Of a stretch of DNA of 64,000 bases, positions 30,335 through 63,998 are shown piece by piece (position 1 is the stretch's first letter; each line of letters starts with the position of its first letter). The DNA is taken from the IMG/VR virus record IMGVR_UViG_638277085_000001, positions 99,399 to 163,398 of that record; one strand, given 5' to 3'. Below the pieces are notes generated by a model that was given only the letters and a program-made list of their open reading frames with translations, searched no databases and was not told where the DNA came from. Origin of the DNA: a virus. Taxonomy: Duplodnaviria; Heunggongvirae; Uroviricota; Caudoviricetes; Straboviridae. Both the position numbers and the translations under genes were made by a program.

Positions 30335-31030
30335 ATGAAAAAGCTCGTACTTGTAGCTGCCGCTGCTGTAGCTCTTGTTGGATGTGGTGATTTGCCACGC
30401 CTGGAAACTAAGACAGACAAGAAATTCACCACGGTTAATGCAGTTGTGAACAAAAAAGAGCGTGAAATGATTAACTACTGGATGGCAGATGCTGACGGTA
30501 GTAACTATCTTTACAACAAGCTTTGGACTGCTCTTGCTACTCGTAACAAATACGGTTCTAATGCTGTGCGTCGTTCAGATGATGAAGTTCCGTTCTGTGA
30601 TGTCATTGTAGCTCTTGCTAAATCTGAAGAAGATATTCGAAGCACGTACGAGCGTACATTTAATAATCAGTGGCGAACTCAATACGGCATTAGTCTTAAT
30701 CAGCAATGTGGCTATACTCCACCAGAAACACTCGAAGAGCAAGCAGAGCGCGTTGAGAAACTTGAAATGCAAGCTGATTTGAAAAAGCGTGAGCAACAAG
30801 CACAGAGTATTGAAACGCTTGATGACGTTGCCGACGCGACGACTGAGCTACTTGATCCGCATGAGTACGACTATCTGATCGAATCGGCACGCGAGTGTAA
30901 TCGAGCCAAAACCAAATTGCTTGAACTAACGCAAGCAGGCAAACCTTTGACACAAGCTGACGGCTCAGATGCACGTAAGCTAATTATCGAATGCAAAATG
31001 CATAAACTTGAAGTTGAATTGAATAAGTGA
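30335..31030 (+). CDS. lipoprotein, paralogue of 42874-43593
   Basis: Lipobox LVGC; EVPFCDVI, CNRAK and KLEVELNK motifs. Confidence 0.8.
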   Translation: MKKLVLVAAAAVALVGCGDLPRLETKTDKKFTTVNAVVNKKEREMINYWMADADGSNYLYNKLWTALATRNKYGSNAVRRSDDEVPFCDVIVALAKSEEDIRSTYERTFNNQWRTQYGISLNQQCGYTPPETLEEQAERVEKLEMQADLKKREQQAQSIETLDDVADATTELLDPHEYDYLIESARECNRAKTKLLELTQAGKPLTQADGSDARKLIIECKMHKLEVELNK

Positions 31031-31825: not shown

Positions 31826-31856
31826 ATGCGGGTTGTTACGACATCCCGCATAAATA
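31826..31856 (+). promoter_or_regulatory. UACG hairpin overlapping a T4-type late promoter (ATAAATA)
   Basis: ATGCGGGTTGT-TACG-ACATCCCGCAT; ATAAATA 31850-31856 about 33 nt before the ATG. Confidence 0.6.
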
Positions 31857-31888: not shown

Positions 31889-32419
31889 ATGCCAACTCCT
31901 ACAACAGGTGCGATTTCAATCGGTACCGTTCGTGATTATTTCAGTAGAACCGGCGCTGCTTCATTGTCTCAGTACTACAGAGGCGGCGGTATTGTTCCTG
32001 ATATTACTGAAAATGCTCACGTACCAACTTCAGGCGCGATTAGCTTGAATGACTTGCGCGGTGTATATCGCTTGTCAACGTATACGACATCATTTACGAC
32101 AACATACAACACCACTGTATCAACATCGAATACGACTTCGCGTAGTACATCAAGAAGTACAACTAGAAGTACTGCATACAGTACAACTCGCTCGACTGCG
32201 TATACTACTAGTTGGACAACTAGCCGAACTACGTCGGTGACTAAAGGTTCGTATTCGACATCATACACGACTTCTCGTGCTACATCACGTTCAACATCAT
32301 ATAGCACGACACGTTCAACAGCTTATACGTCTACGTGGACAACATCATGGACAACCACGTACAACACAACAGTATCAACATCAAACACAACTTCGCGAAG
32401 CACGCAAGTTGCAGTTTAA
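31889..32419 (+). CDS. Ser/Thr tetrapeptide-repeat protein with adhesin-like N-terminal head (putative modified virion needle or RiPP-like precursor)
   Basis: AAGGA RBS; 63 aa head with two PT(T/S)GAIS motifs, then 14 tetrapeptides + G + 14 tetrapeptides. Confidence 0.85.
   Translation: MPTPTTGAISIGTVRDYFSRTGAASLSQYYRGGGIVPDITENAHVPTSGAISLNDLRGVYRLSTYTTSFTTTYNTTVSTSNTTSRSTSRSTTRSTAYSTTRSTAYTTSWTTSRTTSVTKGSYSTSYTTSRATSRSTSYSTTRSTAYTSTWTTSWTTTYNTTVSTSNTTSRSTQVAV
32078..32416 (+). repeat. protein-level 12-nt periodic repeat
   Basis: Units mostly [STA]-[RYWFVN]-[STN]-T; TTTYNTTVSTSNTTSRST occurs twice with different synonymous codons. Confidence 0.9.
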
Positions 32420-32431
32420 CAGGGTTAAATT

Positions 32432-32650
32432 ATGAGCTACAATGAAGAACACGAGAACCGAATCAACGAGCTTGAGAACAAGGTTTCAAAGCTTGAGTCG
32501 ATAATTGAAAATCTGGTCGAGTCAATGACTTCGAACAGCGAAGCTATTATCGAACATATTGCATCACTTGAGACCGAGAGGGATTCGATTCTTGCATCAT
32601 ATGATGACAAACTTAATGAGATCGTGACCAAATATGAACCCAAGCAATAG
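32432..32650 (+). CDS. small acidic coiled-coil protein
   Basis: Heptad pattern RINELENKVSKLESIIENL. Confidence 0.75.
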   Translation: MSYNEEHENRINELENKVSKLESIIENLVESMTSNSEAIIEHIASLETERDSILASYDDKLNEIVTKYEPKQ

Positions 32651-32654
32651 AGAA

Positions 32655-33488
32655 ATGACTGGGTTCAATAACATTTCTCGCACCGGTAAGTTGAAATTAC
32701 AATCCGATGCAGACAACGTCCGTGCCATGTGTATGGACGTTGTTCGTTTATTGAACTCTAAAAATATACCATCTAACTTCGACATCAATCACAATGACGG
32801 TGGTAACATCGGCGTGCATGAATGGGTGTCACAAATCCGCTTCATTCACTTGAAATACATGAACGTTAATTTCCAAACGAAGATTTTCAAGCATGCCTAT
32901 CATAACACTGAAAACGTCGTTGACTATTTTGACACGTTCAAACATTCTGACAAATATCATCTATCAGCGAAGCCTAGATTTTTAGAATATGAAAACGTCG
33001 TATTTCTATGTGGATCGAATGTACTTGAATTGGCAATTGACTTTGACAAGATTGATACGCTGGTCGAACATTATCCCGATTTAGTGATCAAACCACACCC
33101 GATTACGACGCTGTATTACATCAATATGCTTAAAACTCGATATGGATCGAAGCGCGTGCTTTCTCAGAAGATCAGCGGTGTTGATGTTCTTAAATCTGCT
33201 AAACGTGTTTGGCTACCTTCAACGTCTGAGTTCTGGTTTAGTGCCTTGAACTACGACAAAGAAATCGGGTTTATCTCTAAAGATGGTTTCTGTGGAACGT
33301 ACACGTCAATCATCAACGCAGTATGGGAATTGCATGAAGAAACCGGTGATCCATTGAAAGATATTGTGAATAAAATTATCTCGTCACCTTACTCAGGTCT
33401 GTATGGTAGTATGGCAGACTTTGAAGAGCATCACGAGAAATACTGTAATGTGATTCTAGAACTAGGGGGTAATTTCGATAATGTATGA
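32655..33488 (+). CDS. GT-B glycosyltransferase-like protein (KpsS/KpsC or sialyltransferase-like HP motif)
   Basis: LVIKPHP motif followed by DVLKSAKRV...SEFWF..ALNYDKEI. Confidence 0.6.
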   Translation: MTGFNNISRTGKLKLQSDADNVRAMCMDVVRLLNSKNIPSNFDINHNDGGNIGVHEWVSQIRFIHLKYMNVNFQTKIFKHAYHNTENVVDYFDTFKHSDKYHLSAKPRFLEYENVVFLCGSNVLELAIDFDKIDTLVEHYPDLVIKPHPITTLYYINMLKTRYGSKRVLSQKISGVDVLKSAKRVWLPSTSEFWFSALNYDKEIGFISKDGFCGTYTSIINAVWELHEETGDPLKDIVNKIISSPYSGLYGSMADFEEHHEKYCNVILELGGNFDNV

Positions 33489-34113
33489 TTATGTAATTCA
33501 CACTTCGATTAGTGACAAAAGTCAGCTAAACCAACTAGTGATGTTTGTCGGGTCTTTCATCGAGACGCACAAAAAAGGTCGCGTGGTCTGCGTGACTGAT
33601 CTTGAACTTGATTTCACGATGCCTCGACTGTCATTTGAGAAAAAACTACCCGAAGAGTACGTTTTCATTTCAGTTGACAATCTATTTTTACAAAAAACAT
33701 ACGGCGTTGTTAGCTACATTGACAGTGGTACTTGGCGATGTACTTGGCAAAAGAATGATCATGATGATTTCGTCATTAAAAAGCATGGCGAAAGAAGCGG
33801 GTTGATTCACCCTGATATTGCAATTGCAAATTACAATGTTTCGAGACATGGCGATCTCGACATGTATTACAACGCGCTTCGTTACATTGAGAGCGCAATC
33901 ACGATCAACTGCAAAGACTTTGCCCCTGCTGCTGAGAATAAAATCAACAGCTTTTACACGCTTGTATTTCCATGGGAGATTTATTTTCACGTTATGATCA
34001 CTTACCAAGAGTATATTGATTCTGAATACGTTGAGCGAGTTCGCGCTAACTGTCATAAGTTCGCACACTCGGTTTATTACAGAAAATCAGGGTTGTTACG
34101 TGATGGGTTATGA
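33481..34113 (+). CDS. putative GT-A-like glycosyltransferase / tailoring enzyme
   Basis: N-terminal beta-alpha-beta (YVIHTS...RVVCVTD) and FISVDNLFL resembling a DxD region; weak. Confidence 0.4.
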   Translation: MYDYVIHTSISDKSQLNQLVMFVGSFIETHKKGRVVCVTDLELDFTMPRLSFEKKLPEEYVFISVDNLFLQKTYGVVSYIDSGTWRCTWQKNDHDDFVIKKHGERSGLIHPDIAIANYNVSRHGDLDMYYNALRYIESAITINCKDFAPAAENKINSFYTLVFPWEIYFHVMITYQEYIDSEYVERVRANCHKFAHSVYYRKSGLLRDGL

Positions 34114-61014: not shown

Positions 61015-61590
61015 TCACTGTACTTTCTTAGTTCGCTTGTCAATCTCTTGAACTTTACTTTCAAGATTGTCAATACGAGTATTAAGCATTTCTCCATCTT
61101 TCCCCGTAAAGCGGTCAGTTGAATCAATGTTAATCAATGTCTCGACTCTGGCTAAATCAGTCTCAATCTTAGAGTAACGTGAATGGGTACCGTCTATCTT
61201 AGTAATAATGGCGTTCTGAGTGTTTTTAATACTCTCCACTGAGTTTACTAGATTTTTGTCGCCCAACTCTGACGCACTCCTCAATGCTCTTACTTCGCTC
61301 TCAAGACTACCATAGTTTACAAGCACTTGATCTTGCTTTTTAACGATAAGAGCTTGCGCTCCTTCTAAGCCAATCAGTTGTTGTGCCTGCGTTGCGTTTG
61401 TTAGTTTGATGTCAGTTATTTCTTGCATGATTTTAGCGTTTTGAGCAACTGCGGTTTTACCTTGTTCTTGGACAACTTGTAATGCTTCTTGCATACTACC
61501 GTAGTTTGTCGCAACGCTCATTGAGGTGATAGCCAGAGGGATAAGAATAGTACCTATAACAGCTAACAAAAATTGCGCCATTTTACTCAT
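61015..61590 (-). CDS. membrane-anchored coiled-coil late protein (at the position of T4 holin t)
   Basis: N-terminal TM, long coiled coil; AGGA RBS; directly downstream of the tail fibre. Confidence 0.55.
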   Translation of the reverse strand: MSKMAQFLLAVIGTILIPLAITSMSVATNYGSMQEALQVVQEQGKTAVAQNAKIMQEITDIKLTNATQAQQLIGLEGAQALIVKKQDQVLVNYGSLESEVRALRSASELGDKNLVNSVESIKNTQNAIITKIDGTHSRYSKIETDLARVETLINIDSTDRFTGKDGEMLNTRIDNLESKVQEIDKRTKKVQ

Positions 61591-61637: not shown

Positions 61638-61645
61638 TATTTATA
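61638..61645 (-). promoter_or_regulatory. T4 late promoter TATAAATA
   Basis: Exact consensus on the minus strand overlapping the tail fibre stop. Confidence 0.7.
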
Positions 61646-63998
61646 AACGAAGCAACTTCTTCCACCATGGGCGTTTAAGCTCTTGTACTTCGTTCTGAAG
61701 CGTGTCTACTTTTTCATTAAGCTCTTTAATAGCTTCAATCAAAAGACCGTTCATATTGCCGTACGCGACTGATAGAATACGATCTTCGTCGTCACTTTCC
61801 ATCACTGCTTCTGGCAGTACTTTTTCCACTTCTTGCGCAATCACACCCGTTTCACGAATATATTCGTCGGAATCGAATGAACTACGCTTGTCATATGTAT
61901 ACCCGTTTAATTCACCTACTTTATTGAGTGCATTGTCAATAAGCTTGATGTTTTTCTTCAAACGTCGGTCCGAGTACGCTGTCACGTTACCCGGCGCAGT
62001 GAAGTTACCAGTTGAATACTGGAATGACCATTGCTTAGTCGTTGAGCTATTCAGCGACGAAACGATCTGAGCCGTATGCGCTCCTGAAGAACTCAAAATT
62101 GCACCGAATGAGTGCTGATAACGACCACCCGAGTGGTTAATATCACCTTTCATAAAAGCATGATATTCACTAGTACCCGAACTTGATTTGTAGTGATAAA
62201 ATGGGGCTTGTGACGTGTAATGCGAAGCATACGAATAAGATGCCGCAGATCCGTAAGCCGTCATCCTACCCGTAGACAACAATGCACTTTGAACTGTTAC
62301 ATCAGTAAAGTCATTCCCATAGTTGACAATCAAGTTTGACGTTGTACCTACTAATGCTCGCTTATCACGAATCTTGAAATCTTGACCGCCATTTGAGCTA
62401 ATCAAAGAAGACCCGAGATAGGTTGCTGTGGTAGCAGTCGTAGCCGATGTCGCCGTCGTAGCGTTGCCACTCAGAGAACCCACGAATGTCGGCGCTGTTA
62501 CACTATGCGCAAACACCGCAGTTCCGTTTTCGTTCAATCTGAAATCATCAGATGCACTACCGTTGTATCTAAACGCCATGACACCGTTTTGATGGTCAAG
62601 CTGCCAGTAGTTATCGCTGTACGTACTGTCCATCAAGTTCAACTGAACGTTTGTGTGTCGAATCGTCAACTGTCCATTGATCGTATCCCCTGCTTTGCTA
62701 ACCGCACCAATTTCAGCCAATGACCATGCAACGTTAGCAGATCCGTTTACTGATTTGCCAGTATTACCGATTGTCAATGTACGAGCATTAGCCCATGTCG
62801 TTGCTGTACTTGCATTCCCACTCAGTGGGCCTACAAAGCTACCACTCATAGTCCCACCGATAACTGATATATTACCAGACGAATTGCAGTCTAGGCGAAT
62901 GTCATAATCAGCCGTGCTATTAGTCGTGTGGAAATCAATATATCTCGCAACTTCAAGCACACCAGCAGATGTAACTTTTGCTAGGTATTTGTTAACAATC
63001 CCTGCGAATGTTTGAGTTGTCGAGAACTCGGAATTTTGTGCAAATCGAGCATCGGATTCAGATTCAGTGTAGTACCGACCATCGTGAGTATGAGAGTCAT
63101 TTGCCACAGTAACTGTCATTGTCGCATTTGAGCTACCGTCAAACGAAACTGCGCCACTTACATCGCCGTTTAGCGTCAGCGTACGAGCAGTAGTCCATTT
63201 GTCAGCATTTGGATGATAACCGTCATGAAACACATTGTTGCTTCCGTATTTCAAAACCCCATCAACTGAAGACAATACCCCGTCAATACCCCAGAAATTT
63301 GAGTGATAGTTGCCGCCCGTATTGACAAACTCATGGTAAACTTCAACAGTATAGTTCGATGTGTGCCATGTCGAAACAGCAGGATCGCCATCTACATCAA
63401 TGAAGAAATTGATTCTATTACTACTTGCCGCAGATTGAGTAGTATTAACAACCGTCCATGCACCGTTGATATTAGTGAATGTCGCGCTAGATGCCGAGTC
63501 AGTAGTTCCAGTGCCCGTAATTACAGCTCGTACACGGATAGAACCTTGCGTAATCGCAGCCCCATTTTGGTCTAACAACTTAGCAGGAGCATTGATGTTT
63601 ACTGCATAGTCTCGGCGATACTTGTACATCCCTCCGTAGAAATCACCCGTGATCTCTTTAGCTGTCCATGTTACATTACTCGTACCATCTACTGACTTAC
63701 CAGTGTTACCGATTGTCAACGTCCTTGCAGTTGTCCATTTATCAGCATTCGGGTGATAAGCATCGTGAAACACACGTTGGTTTACTTTCGCGAAAATCTC
63801 ACCTTCAACTTCAAGACCAGCAGGTGATGCAATTGAGCCATTATCACGAATGATCAATGCTTGACCGTTGCCACCAGCCGTGTTAATATCACCGTCAGTG
63901 ATCTCGTGAATCAACTCAAGGTTTTGACCAGCACTTGTAATCCAGTTGATGCCTGAATTGTTGTTTGCGTAATCAGTTTCATTGAAACTCAAACGCCC
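61641..63998 (-). CDS. long tail fibre distal subunit with C-terminal S74 intramolecular chaperone (5'-partial)
   Basis: Frame is open to the window edge; repeated HPNADKWTTARTL modules; AYSDRRLKKNI, GVIAQEVEKVLPEAV, AYGNMNGLLIEAIKEL. Confidence 0.9.
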   Translation of the reverse strand, partial: GRLSFNETDYANNNSGINWITSAGQNLELIHEITDGDINTAGGNGQALIIRDNGSIASPAGLEVEGEIFAKVNQRVFHDAYHPNADKWTTARTLTIGNTGKSVDGTSNVTWTAKEITGDFYGGMYKYRRDYAVNINAPAKLLDQNGAAITQGSIRVRAVITGTGTTDSASSATFTNINGAWTVVNTTQSAASSNRINFFIDVDGDPAVSTWHTSNYTVEVYHEFVNTGGNYHSNFWGIDGVLSSVDGVLKYGSNNVFHDGYHPNADKWTTARTLTLNGDVSGAVSFDGSSNATMTVTVANDSHTHDGRYYTESESDARFAQNSEFSTTQTFAGIVNKYLAKVTSAGVLEVARYIDFHTTNSTADYDIRLDCNSSGNISVIGGTMSGSFVGPLSGNASTATTWANARTLTIGNTGKSVNGSANVAWSLAEIGAVSKAGDTINGQLTIRHTNVQLNLMDSTYSDNYWQLDHQNGVMAFRYNGSASDDFRLNENGTAVFAHSVTAPTFVGSLSGNATTATSATTATTATYLGSSLISSNGGQDFKIRDKRALVGTTSNLIVNYGNDFTDVTVQSALLSTGRMTAYGSAASYSYASHYTSQAPFYHYKSSSGTSEYHAFMKGDINHSGGRYQHSFGAILSSSGAHTAQIVSSLNSSTTKQWSFQYSTGNFTAPGNVTAYSDRRLKKNIKLIDNALNKVGELNGYTYDKRSSFDSDEYIRETGVIAQEVEKVLPEAVMESDDEDRILSVAYGNMNGLLIEAIKELNEKVDTLQNEVQELKRPWWKKLLRL

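What the first reader, a model, noticed from the sequence alone, without database searches (positions are those of the whole stretch)
32078..32416. Exact 14+1+14 tetrapeptide symmetry suggests one very long beta-hairpin needle
After a 63 aa head the protein parses as TYTT SFTT TYNT TVST SNTT SRST SRST TRST AYST TRST AYTT SWTT SRTT SVTK, then G (codon 32246-32248), then SYST SYTT SRAT SRST SYST TRST AYTS TWTT SWTT TYNT TVST SNTT SRST QVAV. The two arms are both 56 aa and the register shifts at the single Gly. Position 2 of each unit carries the non-S/T residue (R/Y/W/F/V/N). The 18 aa block TTTYNTTVSTSNTTSRST appears twice with diverged synonymous codons, so selection acts on the protein. Inference: an out-and-back antiparallel hairpin, possibly trimeric like the T4 gp37 needle tip, presenting dozens of hydroxyls. 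An alternative is a beta-helix with alternating epimerised residues.
Basis: partly seen in the sequence, partly recalled or inferred. Interest (0 to 1): 0.8.

Follow-up and report, generated by a model that had tools for sequence, protein, structure and literature searches.

The report
Phage fibre-tip protein with long beta-hairpin
This KVP40-type Vibrio phage gene probably encodes a small tail-fibre-tip protein whose Ser/Thr-rich tail folds into one roughly 18 nm beta-hairpin zipped by arginine-aromatic pairs, and genes of this kind always sit beside a glycosyltransferase-like gene, so it may be an undescribed type of phage adhesin.

Summary
The CDS at 31889-32419 (176 aa) parses as a 63-aa head, 14 tetrads, one Gly and 14 tetrads. 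The duplicated 18-aa block differs only by synonymous changes.

The hairpin reading is strongly supported. In nine homologue lineages, one antiparallel register centred on a conserved K-G-type turn pairs every Arg/Lys with Tyr/Trp/Phe. That gives 5-13 such pairs per protein, with no like-with-like clashes in eight lineages and two in the longest (L025); permutation p was <=0.0023 in the seven lineages tested, <=1e-4 in five. Arm lengths co-vary, and in three lineages the only two cysteines flank the turn.

The trimeric gp37-needle analogy and the epimerised beta-helix alternative are not supported.

The head belongs to a family of about 930 clusters that has no Pfam entry. Its genes usually follow gp37-like distal fibre genes. 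Its best solved-structure match is the S16 gp38 attachment domain, but that match is weak (Z 2.6). I therefore read the protein as a gp38-class fibre-tip adhesin with a new distal domain.

Ser/Thr-tetrad genes are always linked to a KpsS-like, HP-motif transferase-like gene, here at 32634-33488. In the reverse test, 75 of 80 viral loci holding the enzyme have such a gene just upstream. This suggests O-glycosylation, which is untested.

Virion presence, oligomeric state and receptor are also untested. Earlier notes from this scan on the same window gave the gp38 and glycosyltransferase leads.

The parts
31889..32419 (+). CDS, 176 aa plus stop (P0001). PHROG 30374, no Pfam family. Annotated 'cell wall mannoprotein' in phi-pp2, which is a low-complexity artefact.
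31889..32077 (+). Head, residues 1-63: two G-x-IS-x-x-(D/N)-(L/I/F) motifs around YYRGGG-VP-ITEN-VPTSG. Putative fibre-docking module. About 930 representative clusters carry it, nearly always at the N-terminus.
   Evidence: (pLDDT 85)
32078..32242 (+). Arm 1 of the hairpin, residues 64-118 (tetrads S/T/A - X - S/T - T).
32243..32248 (+). K119-G120, inferred two-residue beta-turn. G120 is the only Gly in the tail.
32249..32416 (+). Arm 2 of the hairpin, residues 121-176. It pairs with arm 1 so that residue numbers sum to 239.
32096..32149 (+). First copy of the 18-aa block TTTYNTTVSTSNTTSRST (outer end of arm 1).
32351..32404 (+). Second copy of the 18-aa block (outer end of arm 2), with 11 synonymous differences.
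31849..31856 (+). CATAAATA at -40, resembling a T4 late promoter in 7 of 8 positions. Conserved in KVP40, QD01 and VS1 only, and overlaps a stem (31826-31832 / 31845-31851). Weak evidence.
32432..32650 (+). 72-aa coiled-coil protein (PHROG 5851). Co-inherited with the hairpin gene in Schizotequatroviruses and in L025.
32634..33488 (+). 284-aa GT-B/KpsS-like protein with invariant K-x-HP-x-T and S-E motifs (PHROG 30602). Found next to every Ser/Thr-tetrad gene examined.
33481..34113 (+). 210-aa protein (PHROG 30897), also conserved downstream in L025.

Best explanation
The gene encodes a small tail-fibre-associated adhesin of the gp38 class. The 63-residue head is a docking module that attaches the protein, probably as a monomer, to the tip of a gp37-like long tail fibre. 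This step is inferred.

The remaining 113 residues form one two-stranded antiparallel beta-ribbon about 18 nm long, turning at K119-G120. This step is shown by covariation. On one face, position-2 residues of the two arms meet in non-hydrogen-bonded pairs: nine consecutive Arg-Tyr/Trp/Phe pairs alternating with Thr-Thr pairs. The other face is pure Ser/Thr/Ala.

The ribbon probably serves as the receptor- or glycan-contacting probe. It is probably O-glycosylated on Ser/Thr by the co-inherited KpsS-like transferase at 32634-33488. Both of these points are inferred from synteny.
For: Hairpin:
- One register centred on the conserved turn gives 9-13 basic-aromatic pairs with no R-R or aromatic-aromatic pairs in window, VS1, D479, K575, D484 and F86; QD01 differs only by one His-Tyr pair. 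It gives 5-6 in P0007 and L030 and 13 in L025. Permutation p is <=1e-4 for the five Vibrio-phage proteins tested, 0.0006 for P0007 and 0.0023 for L030.
- D479 has a run of Arg in arm 1 facing a run of Trp/Tyr in arm 2, so this is complementarity and not periodicity.
- R-Ar and Ar-R orientations swap between lineages at the same rung.
- Arm lengths co-vary.
- The only two Cys in D479, K575 and F86 flank the K-G turn.
- The gene contains no DNA inverted repeat.
- AF2 places strands at 60-119 and 122-175 with a turn at 120-121, although mean pLDDT is only 56.

Fibre docking:
- Upstream neighbours of head-family genes match long-tail-fibre distal-subunit PHROGs in at least 17 of 62 loci, including the two other hairpin lineages L025 and L030, and RTH11 and DLP_6.
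- The head folds confidently (pLDDT 85). Its top hit among 48,161 PDB chains is S16 gp38 residues 2-52 (Z 2.6, rmsd 2.2 A).
- BFVD matches include proteins named Gp38-domain-containing, and VH7D gp152.
- Gp38 is monomeric and docks through its N-terminal domain (PMC12032242).

Glycosylation:
- The 284-aa gene is present beside S/T-tetrad genes in the KVP40 clade, L025, L030-34, L012 and the L010 contig. It is absent from the 74 other head-family loci.
- 75 of 80 IMG/VR loci with the enzyme have an S/T-rich ORF just upstream; the other 5 lack upstream sequence.
- Structural neighbours are KpsS/LipB (TM 0.57). There is a sub-threshold GT52 hit and invariant HP and SE motifs.
Against: - In KVP40 the gene lies 29 kb from the gp37-like fibre genes, not directly after them.
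- The match to the gp38 attachment domain is weak (Z 2.6). There is no sequence similarity to any solved structure and no Foldseek PDB hit.
- AF2 confidence for the ribbon is low.
- No data show the protein in virions. The only relevant proteome (6E35.1a) was searched against an annotation lacking this ORF.
- The transferase assignment rests on sub-threshold and fold-level hits. No glycan has been shown.
- A free 18-nm two-stranded ribbon has no solved precedent known to me, so it may need partners or oligomerisation.
Confidence: 0.6

Rival explanations
1. The hairpins assemble into a trimer, giving a six-stranded needle like the T4 gp37 tip, or into another oligomer. The small Ser/Thr/Ala face would form the core and the Arg/aromatic face would point outward.
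For: Most fibre proteins are trimeric. One face holds only S/T/A with a few N/Q, which suits tight packing. A lone 18-nm ribbon seems fragile.
Against: There are no HxH metal sites. The head resembles the docking module of monomeric gp38 adhesins. No oligomer prediction could be run.
Confidence: 0.2
2. The tail is an intrinsically disordered, mucin-like glycosylated spacer with no defined hairpin.
For: The tail is 65% Ser+Thr, a glycosyltransferase-like gene is adjacent, and AF2 pLDDT is low.
Against: The tail has strict tetrad phase and no Pro. Basic-aromatic complementarity in one register is perfect or near-perfect across lineages, the turn is conserved, and Cys pairs flank it.
Confidence: 0.08
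3. The tail forms a beta-solenoid or antifreeze-like T-x-T array, or a radical-SAM-epimerised beta-helix (proteusin-like).
For: T-x-T-like periodicity is present, and three radical SAM genes lie within 13 kb (and scan note e1-5442364).
Against: No parallel offset gives consistent pairing across homologues. The radical SAM gene is found only in Schizotequatrovirus loci, not in L025, L030 or L012. No leader-type domain was detected.
Confidence: 0.04
4. The protein is not a virion component. It acts inside or on the infected cell, for example in anti-defence or superinfection exclusion. The region was called an anti-defence island in 6E35.1a.
For: The KVP40 gene sits among non-structural accessory genes, and PMC12028318 labels the adjacent genes an anti-defence island. 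No virion evidence exists.
Against: In other lineages the gene lies inside tail-fibre modules. The head matches gp38-type docking modules.
Confidence: 0.12

Closest known systems
Gp38 tail-fibre-tip adhesins of T2/T6/S16-type Straboviridae (PDB 6F45; PMC12032242)
   Same: Both are small modular proteins. Head-family genes typically lie directly after the distal fibre gene. The N-terminal roughly 60-aa domain gives the best, though weak, structural match. The distal domain is variable. Some head-family members carry Gly-rich or Gp38-type C-termini.
   Different: There is no sequence similarity. There are no glycine-rich motifs and no polyglycine-II sandwich; the distal domain is a Ser/Thr hairpin. 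In KVP40 the gene is 29 kb from the fibre genes.
T4 gp37 needle domain (from my own knowledge: Bartual et al. 2010, PNAS)
   Same: The chain runs out to a tip and back as antiparallel strands in a thin, long rod at a fibre end.
   Different: gp37 is an intertwined trimer held by Fe ions on HxH motifs. Here there are no His motifs, pairing is intramolecular through Arg-aromatic pairs, and the protein is likely a monomer.
Trp-Arg (cation-pi) ladders of thrombospondin type-1 repeats and cytokine-receptor WSXWS motifs, and designed Trp-zipper or Lys/Arg-Trp beta-hairpins (from my own knowledge)
   Same: Thin antiparallel strands are stabilised by alternating Arg and aromatic side chains from neighbouring strands. 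TSRs are also glycosylated by dedicated enzymes.
   Different: Those ladders have 3-6 rungs in 40-60 residue domains, with WxxW/RxR spacing and disulfide knots. Here there are 9-13 rungs at four-residue spacing alternating with Thr-Thr pairs, over arms of at least 50 residues.
Glycosylated Ser/Thr-rich virion proteins of mycobacteriophages, and bacterial serine-rich-repeat or AIDA-type adhesins with dedicated transferases (from my own knowledge)
   Same: A Ser/Thr-rich surface protein is encoded next to its own transferase-like gene.
   Different: The enzyme here is KpsS/GT52-like (HP motif). The substrate would be a regular beta-ribbon, not a tail or solenoid. No glycan has been demonstrated.

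Membership tests
Gp38-class fibre-tip adhesin | Gene immediately downstream of the distal long-tail-fibre gene | tested here: inconclusive
   Met for relatives: at least 17 of 62 head-family loci, plus L025, L030, RTH11 and DLP_6. Not met in KVP40 itself, where the fibre genes lie from window 61641 onward on the minus strand.
Gp38-class fibre-tip adhesin | N-terminal attachment-domain fold | tested here: inconclusive
   The top PDB hit is 6f45_D residues 2-52, but only Z 2.6 and rmsd 2.2 A over 51 residues. BFVD hits include Gp38-domain-named proteins at E about 1e-2. Foldseek found no PDB hit.
Gp38-class fibre-tip adhesin | Glycine-rich motifs forming a polyglycine-II sandwich | tested here: not met
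   The tail has one Gly and there is no Pfam match.
Gp38-class fibre-tip adhesin | Present on virions as a monomer capping trimeric gp37 | not testable with these tools
   The 6E35.1a virion MS used an annotation without this ORF.
T4 gp37 needle | HxH iron-binding motifs along the needle | tested here: not met
   There is a single His, located in the head.
T4 gp37 needle | Out-and-back antiparallel strands | tested here: met
   Register scan and covariation.
Proteusin / epimerised beta-helix RiPP | Leader domain plus a co-inherited radical SAM epimerase | tested here: not met
   No leader family was detected. The radical SAM homologue is absent from L025, L030 and L012 loci.
O-glycosylated Ser/Thr-rich surface protein with dedicated transferase | Adjacent, co-inherited glycosyltransferase gene | tested here: inconclusive
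   Synteny is very strong. Enzyme identity rests on TM 0.57 to KpsS/LipB, a sub-threshold GT52 hit, and HP/SE motifs.
O-glycosylated Ser/Thr-rich surface protein with dedicated transferase | Glycan attached to Ser/Thr | not testable with these tools
   Requires mass spectrometry.
Yeast Tir-type cell wall mannoprotein (database annotation) | Homology to Tir/Srp1 family domains | tested here: not met
   No Pfam family at E<=10 except noise. The label dates from RAST annotation of phi-pp2.

The most novel reading that the evidence does not exclude
Ser/Thr-tetrad proteins and their KpsS-like partner enzyme form a widespread, undescribed class of phage fibre. The fibre would be an enzyme-tailored (glycosylated) two-stranded beta-ribbon zipped by an Arg/Lys-aromatic ladder. 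Its length would be set simply by adding tetrads to both arms, from about 30 residues per arm (L030) to about 156 (L025), and perhaps far more in the 400-1850-aa marine-phage ORFs. It would dock on fibres either through a gp38-like head or by other means.
Probability: 0.35. Interest if true: 0.85.

Novelty: new variant of a known kind. Interest (0 to 1): 0.72.

Why it matters
If this reading is right, four things follow.

1. It gives a natural, sequence-readable design rule for very long single beta-hairpins: Thr-rich strands, a K-G turn, and Arg-aromatic pairs at non-H-bonded sites. This is far longer than any solved example I know of.

2. It assigns a role, fibre docking, to an unannotated N-terminal domain found in about 930 protein clusters.

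3. It points to a new receptor-binding module in broad-host-range KVP40-type vibriophages, whose receptor-binding proteins are only partly known.

4. It reveals a conserved substrate-enzyme gene pair in hundreds of viral contigs, which may mean that virion glycosylation is common in marine and Caulobacter phages.

It also shows that current annotations mislabel or miss this gene.

Tried and rejected
- Pfam found no family for the protein.
- The word-indexed homologue search found only 3 proteins because of the low-complexity tail.
- PDB sequence searches with P0003 and with the head profile gave nothing relevant.
- A Foldseek PDB search of the head model gave no hit.
- The ESM Atlas has no model of this protein and gave no usable hit.
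- A parallel-stacking (solenoid) scan gave no consistent period.
- A DNA inverted repeat as the source of the protein symmetry was ruled out: none is present.
- I looked for the protein in the virion proteome of 6E35.1a. It is absent, but the ORF was not in the search database, so this is uninformative.
- Late-promoter evidence is weak and restricted to one clade.
- The profile of the five enzyme homologues was too divergent for a collection scan, so sub-alignments were used.
- Pfam found no domains in seven giant S/T ORFs. The Hint-like C-terminus of the L010 ORF was seen by eye only.

Full report
**Identity of the window**

The region matches KVP40-type Schizotequatroviruses at 97-98% identity. 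The window's own record is a 244,834-bp virus genome. The finding lies in a 176-aa CDS at 31889-32419 on the + strand. In phi-pp2 the orthologue is labelled 'cell wall mannoprotein'. That label traces to automatic annotation and has no Pfam support. The only family hit is PHROG 30374, of unknown function.

**Observation**

The parse into a 63-aa head, 14 tetrads, Gly and 14 tetrads is correct.
- Position 2 of each tetrad carries R/Y/W/F/V/N.
- Position 4 is Thr in 25 of 28 units.
- Positions 1 and 3 are Ser/Thr/Ala, with a few Asn/Gln.
- The tail has one Gly and no Pro.
- The two copies of the 18-aa block differ at 11 of 54 nucleotides, all synonymous. They belong to a 75-nt direct repeat.
- Among near-identical phages, tail codon differences are mostly synonymous (11:6, 7:3 and 8:4). 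The replacements are S/T/A/N or V/I swaps that leave the large residues untouched.

**The hairpin**

I collected homologues from GenBank phages (QD01/VS1/VS2, D479, the K575/D48x group, F86), from the representative library (P0007) and from IMG/VR (L025, L030).

Arm lengths around the centre co-vary: 56/56, 52/52, 48/51, 53/55 and 57/59.

The centre is always a K-G-type turn: TKGS, GKSG, CGKGVC, CSKGGC, PGK, DGK or SKG. In D479, K575 and F86 the only two cysteines of the protein flank this turn.

I scanned every antiparallel register. In every protein one register, centred on that turn, puts position-2 residues opposite each other and pairs every Arg/Lys with Tyr/Trp/Phe.
- Window: 9 such pairs, with no R-R and no aromatic-aromatic pairs.
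- QD01 and VS1: 9 each.
- D479: 13. K575: 12. F86: 11.
- P0007: 6. L030: 5.
- L025: 13, with a centre at the exact midpoint of a 316-aa tail.

Other in-phase registers give 2-8 pairs with clashes. Shuffling arm-2 residues reaches the observed score in at most 2 of 20,000 trials for the five Vibrio-phage proteins tested, and gives p=0.0006 and 0.0023 for P0007 and L030.

This is not a by-product of an alternating repeat. D479 has a run of Arg units in arm 1 facing a run of Trp/Tyr units in arm 2. The R-aromatic and aromatic-R orientation also flips between lineages at equivalent rungs. There is no DNA palindrome and no consistent parallel (solenoid) offset.

With K-G as a two-residue turn, the X-X and T-T pairs fall on the non-hydrogen-bonded face. 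That is also where the Cys pairs of the other lineages lie. The opposite face is Ser/Thr/Ala only. At 3.3-3.4 A per residue the ribbon would be about 18 nm long.

AF2 with a 5-sequence alignment gave the same topology, with strands at 60-119 and 122-175 and a turn at 120-121. Its mean pLDDT was only 56, so I treat it as weak corroboration.

**The head**

A full HMMER scan with residues 1-63 found 930 representative clusters, almost always with the domain at the N-terminus. The C-termini are unrelated: beta-sandwiches, Calx-beta arrays, SBBP propellers and Gly_rich_2.

In 62 distinct IMG/VR loci, the gene just upstream matches long-tail-fibre distal-subunit PHROGs in at least 17 cases, and other tail-fibre families in many more. 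The same holds for Xanthomonas phage RTH11 and Stenotrophomonas phage DLP_6, and for the two other hairpin-bearing lineages L025 and L030.

With a 136-sequence alignment the head folds confidently (pLDDT 85).
- An exhaustive comparison with 48,161 PDB chains returned only two hits with Z>=2. The top hit is the N-terminal attachment domain (residues 2-52) of S16 gp38 in the gp37-gp38 complex (Z 2.6, rmsd 2.2 A over 51 residues). This is weak.
- It fits the gene-order evidence. It also fits BFVD matches to proteins named 'Receptor-recognising protein Gp38 domain-containing', to a Gly-rich protein, and to VH7D gp152.
- Gp38 adhesins are monomeric and dock on gp37 through this domain (PMC12032242).

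In KVP40 the gp37-like genes end in an S74-type chaperone domain. They lie 29 kb away on the minus strand and have no gp38-like gene after them. The genome has no second head-family gene.

VH7D and ValKK3 carry, at the same slot, a protein with three copies of the head motif and a different C-terminus. They lack the downstream block.

**The linked enzyme**

Scan notes on this window suggested a tailoring cluster, and I tested that idea.

The 284-aa protein encoded two genes downstream (32634-33488) has homologues next to every Ser/Thr-tetrad gene examined:
- all Schizotequatrovirus versions;
- L025 (28% identity, E 5e-30), where the coiled-coil and 210-aa proteins are also conserved;
- L030-L034;
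- the head-less repeat proteins in L012 and in the L010 contig.

None of the other 74 head-family loci has a homologue within the flanks held.

In the reverse direction, 75 of 80 IMG/VR loci holding the L012-type enzyme have a 100-1850-aa S/T-rich ORF ending just before it on the same strand. The remaining five have no upstream sequence.

In cultured Caulobacter phages the gene order is tail fibre, then a Thr/Tyr/Arg-rich small protein, then the enzyme (Lullwater gp40-42, Cr30 gp253-255). Lullwater gp41 again shows a best antiparallel register at its midpoint.

On the identity of the enzyme:
- It has invariant K-x-HP-x-T and S-E motifs.
- It has a sub-threshold GT52 hit.
- Its Atlas model is nearest to KpsS/LipB capsule transferases (TM 0.57) and to pyruvyl transferases.

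I infer a CMP-sugar-type transferase acting on the repeat, but neither the chemistry nor the substrate has been shown. The QueC-like, NAMPT-like and radical SAM genes are not co-inherited with the repeat outside this genus.

**Virion status**

The 6E35.1a particle proteome (PMC12028318, Table S4) does not list the protein. However, the annotation used for that search replaced this ORF with a 36-aa call in another frame (VP6E351A_0311). The data are therefore silent on this point. Promoter evidence is weak.

**Verdict**

The protein is best read as a gp38-class fibre-tip adhesin whose distal domain is a new kind of long Arg-aromatic-zipped Ser/Thr beta-ribbon, coupled genetically to a transferase-like enzyme. 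The trimeric needle and the epimerised helix are unsupported. Docking, glycosylation, oligomeric state and receptor remain inferences.

Noticed in passing
L010 2473-6111 (= L129 120-3755); L129 3798-6923; L124, L135, L195: Marine viral contigs carry one or two tandem giant ORFs (400-1850 aa) built from the same S/T-X-S/T-T tetrads, directly upstream of the KpsS-like gene. The L010 ORF ends in a Hint/intein-like sequence that I saw by eye only. Pfam found no domains in the seven ORFs scanned.
   Followed up: partly
Vibrio phage 6E35.1a, MW824377.1 219984-220517 (L118 2501-3034): The re-annotation used in PMC12028318 does not call this gene. VP6E351A_0311 is a 36-aa ORF in another frame, and K575, D48x and F86 records show the same fragmentation. 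The gene was therefore invisible to the published virion proteomics and pangenome analysis.
   Followed up: yes
L014 4856-5389 (VH7D gp152); L015 3747-4280 (ValKK3): At the same genomic slot, VH7D-type phages carry a protein with three SG-x-IS-x-x-D-x-R motifs and an unrelated C-terminus, followed by a PagP-like gene. The whole hairpin/transferase/QueC/radical-SAM block is missing.
   Followed up: partly
window 61015-61590 (-) and 61641-63998 (-): The gp37-like distal fibre gene ends in an S74-type intramolecular chaperone sequence. It is followed by a 191-aa protein with an N-terminal hydrophobic segment and coiled-coil character. A second gp37-like paralogue lies just beyond the window.
   Followed up: no
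L201 5204-5851 (Lullwater gp41); L200 5500-5850 (Cr30 gp254): Cultured Caulobacter phages have Thr/Tyr/Arg-rich small proteins between a tail-fibre gene and the enzyme homologue. The best antiparallel register of gp41 centres on KPSEDP at its midpoint (10 basic-aromatic pairs).
   Followed up: partly
window 30335-31030 (+): The 231-aa protein two genes upstream has a lipoprotein-like signal (…LVGCGD). Its 6E35.1a orthologue (VP6E351A_0309) was detected at low counts in virion MS.
   Followed up: no
window 31826-31856: A stem (ATGCGGG / CCCGCAT) overlaps a CATAAATA motif 40 nt before the start codon. The motif is conserved in QD01 and VS1 but not in D479, K575 or F86. The stem was checked in the window only.
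   Followed up: partly
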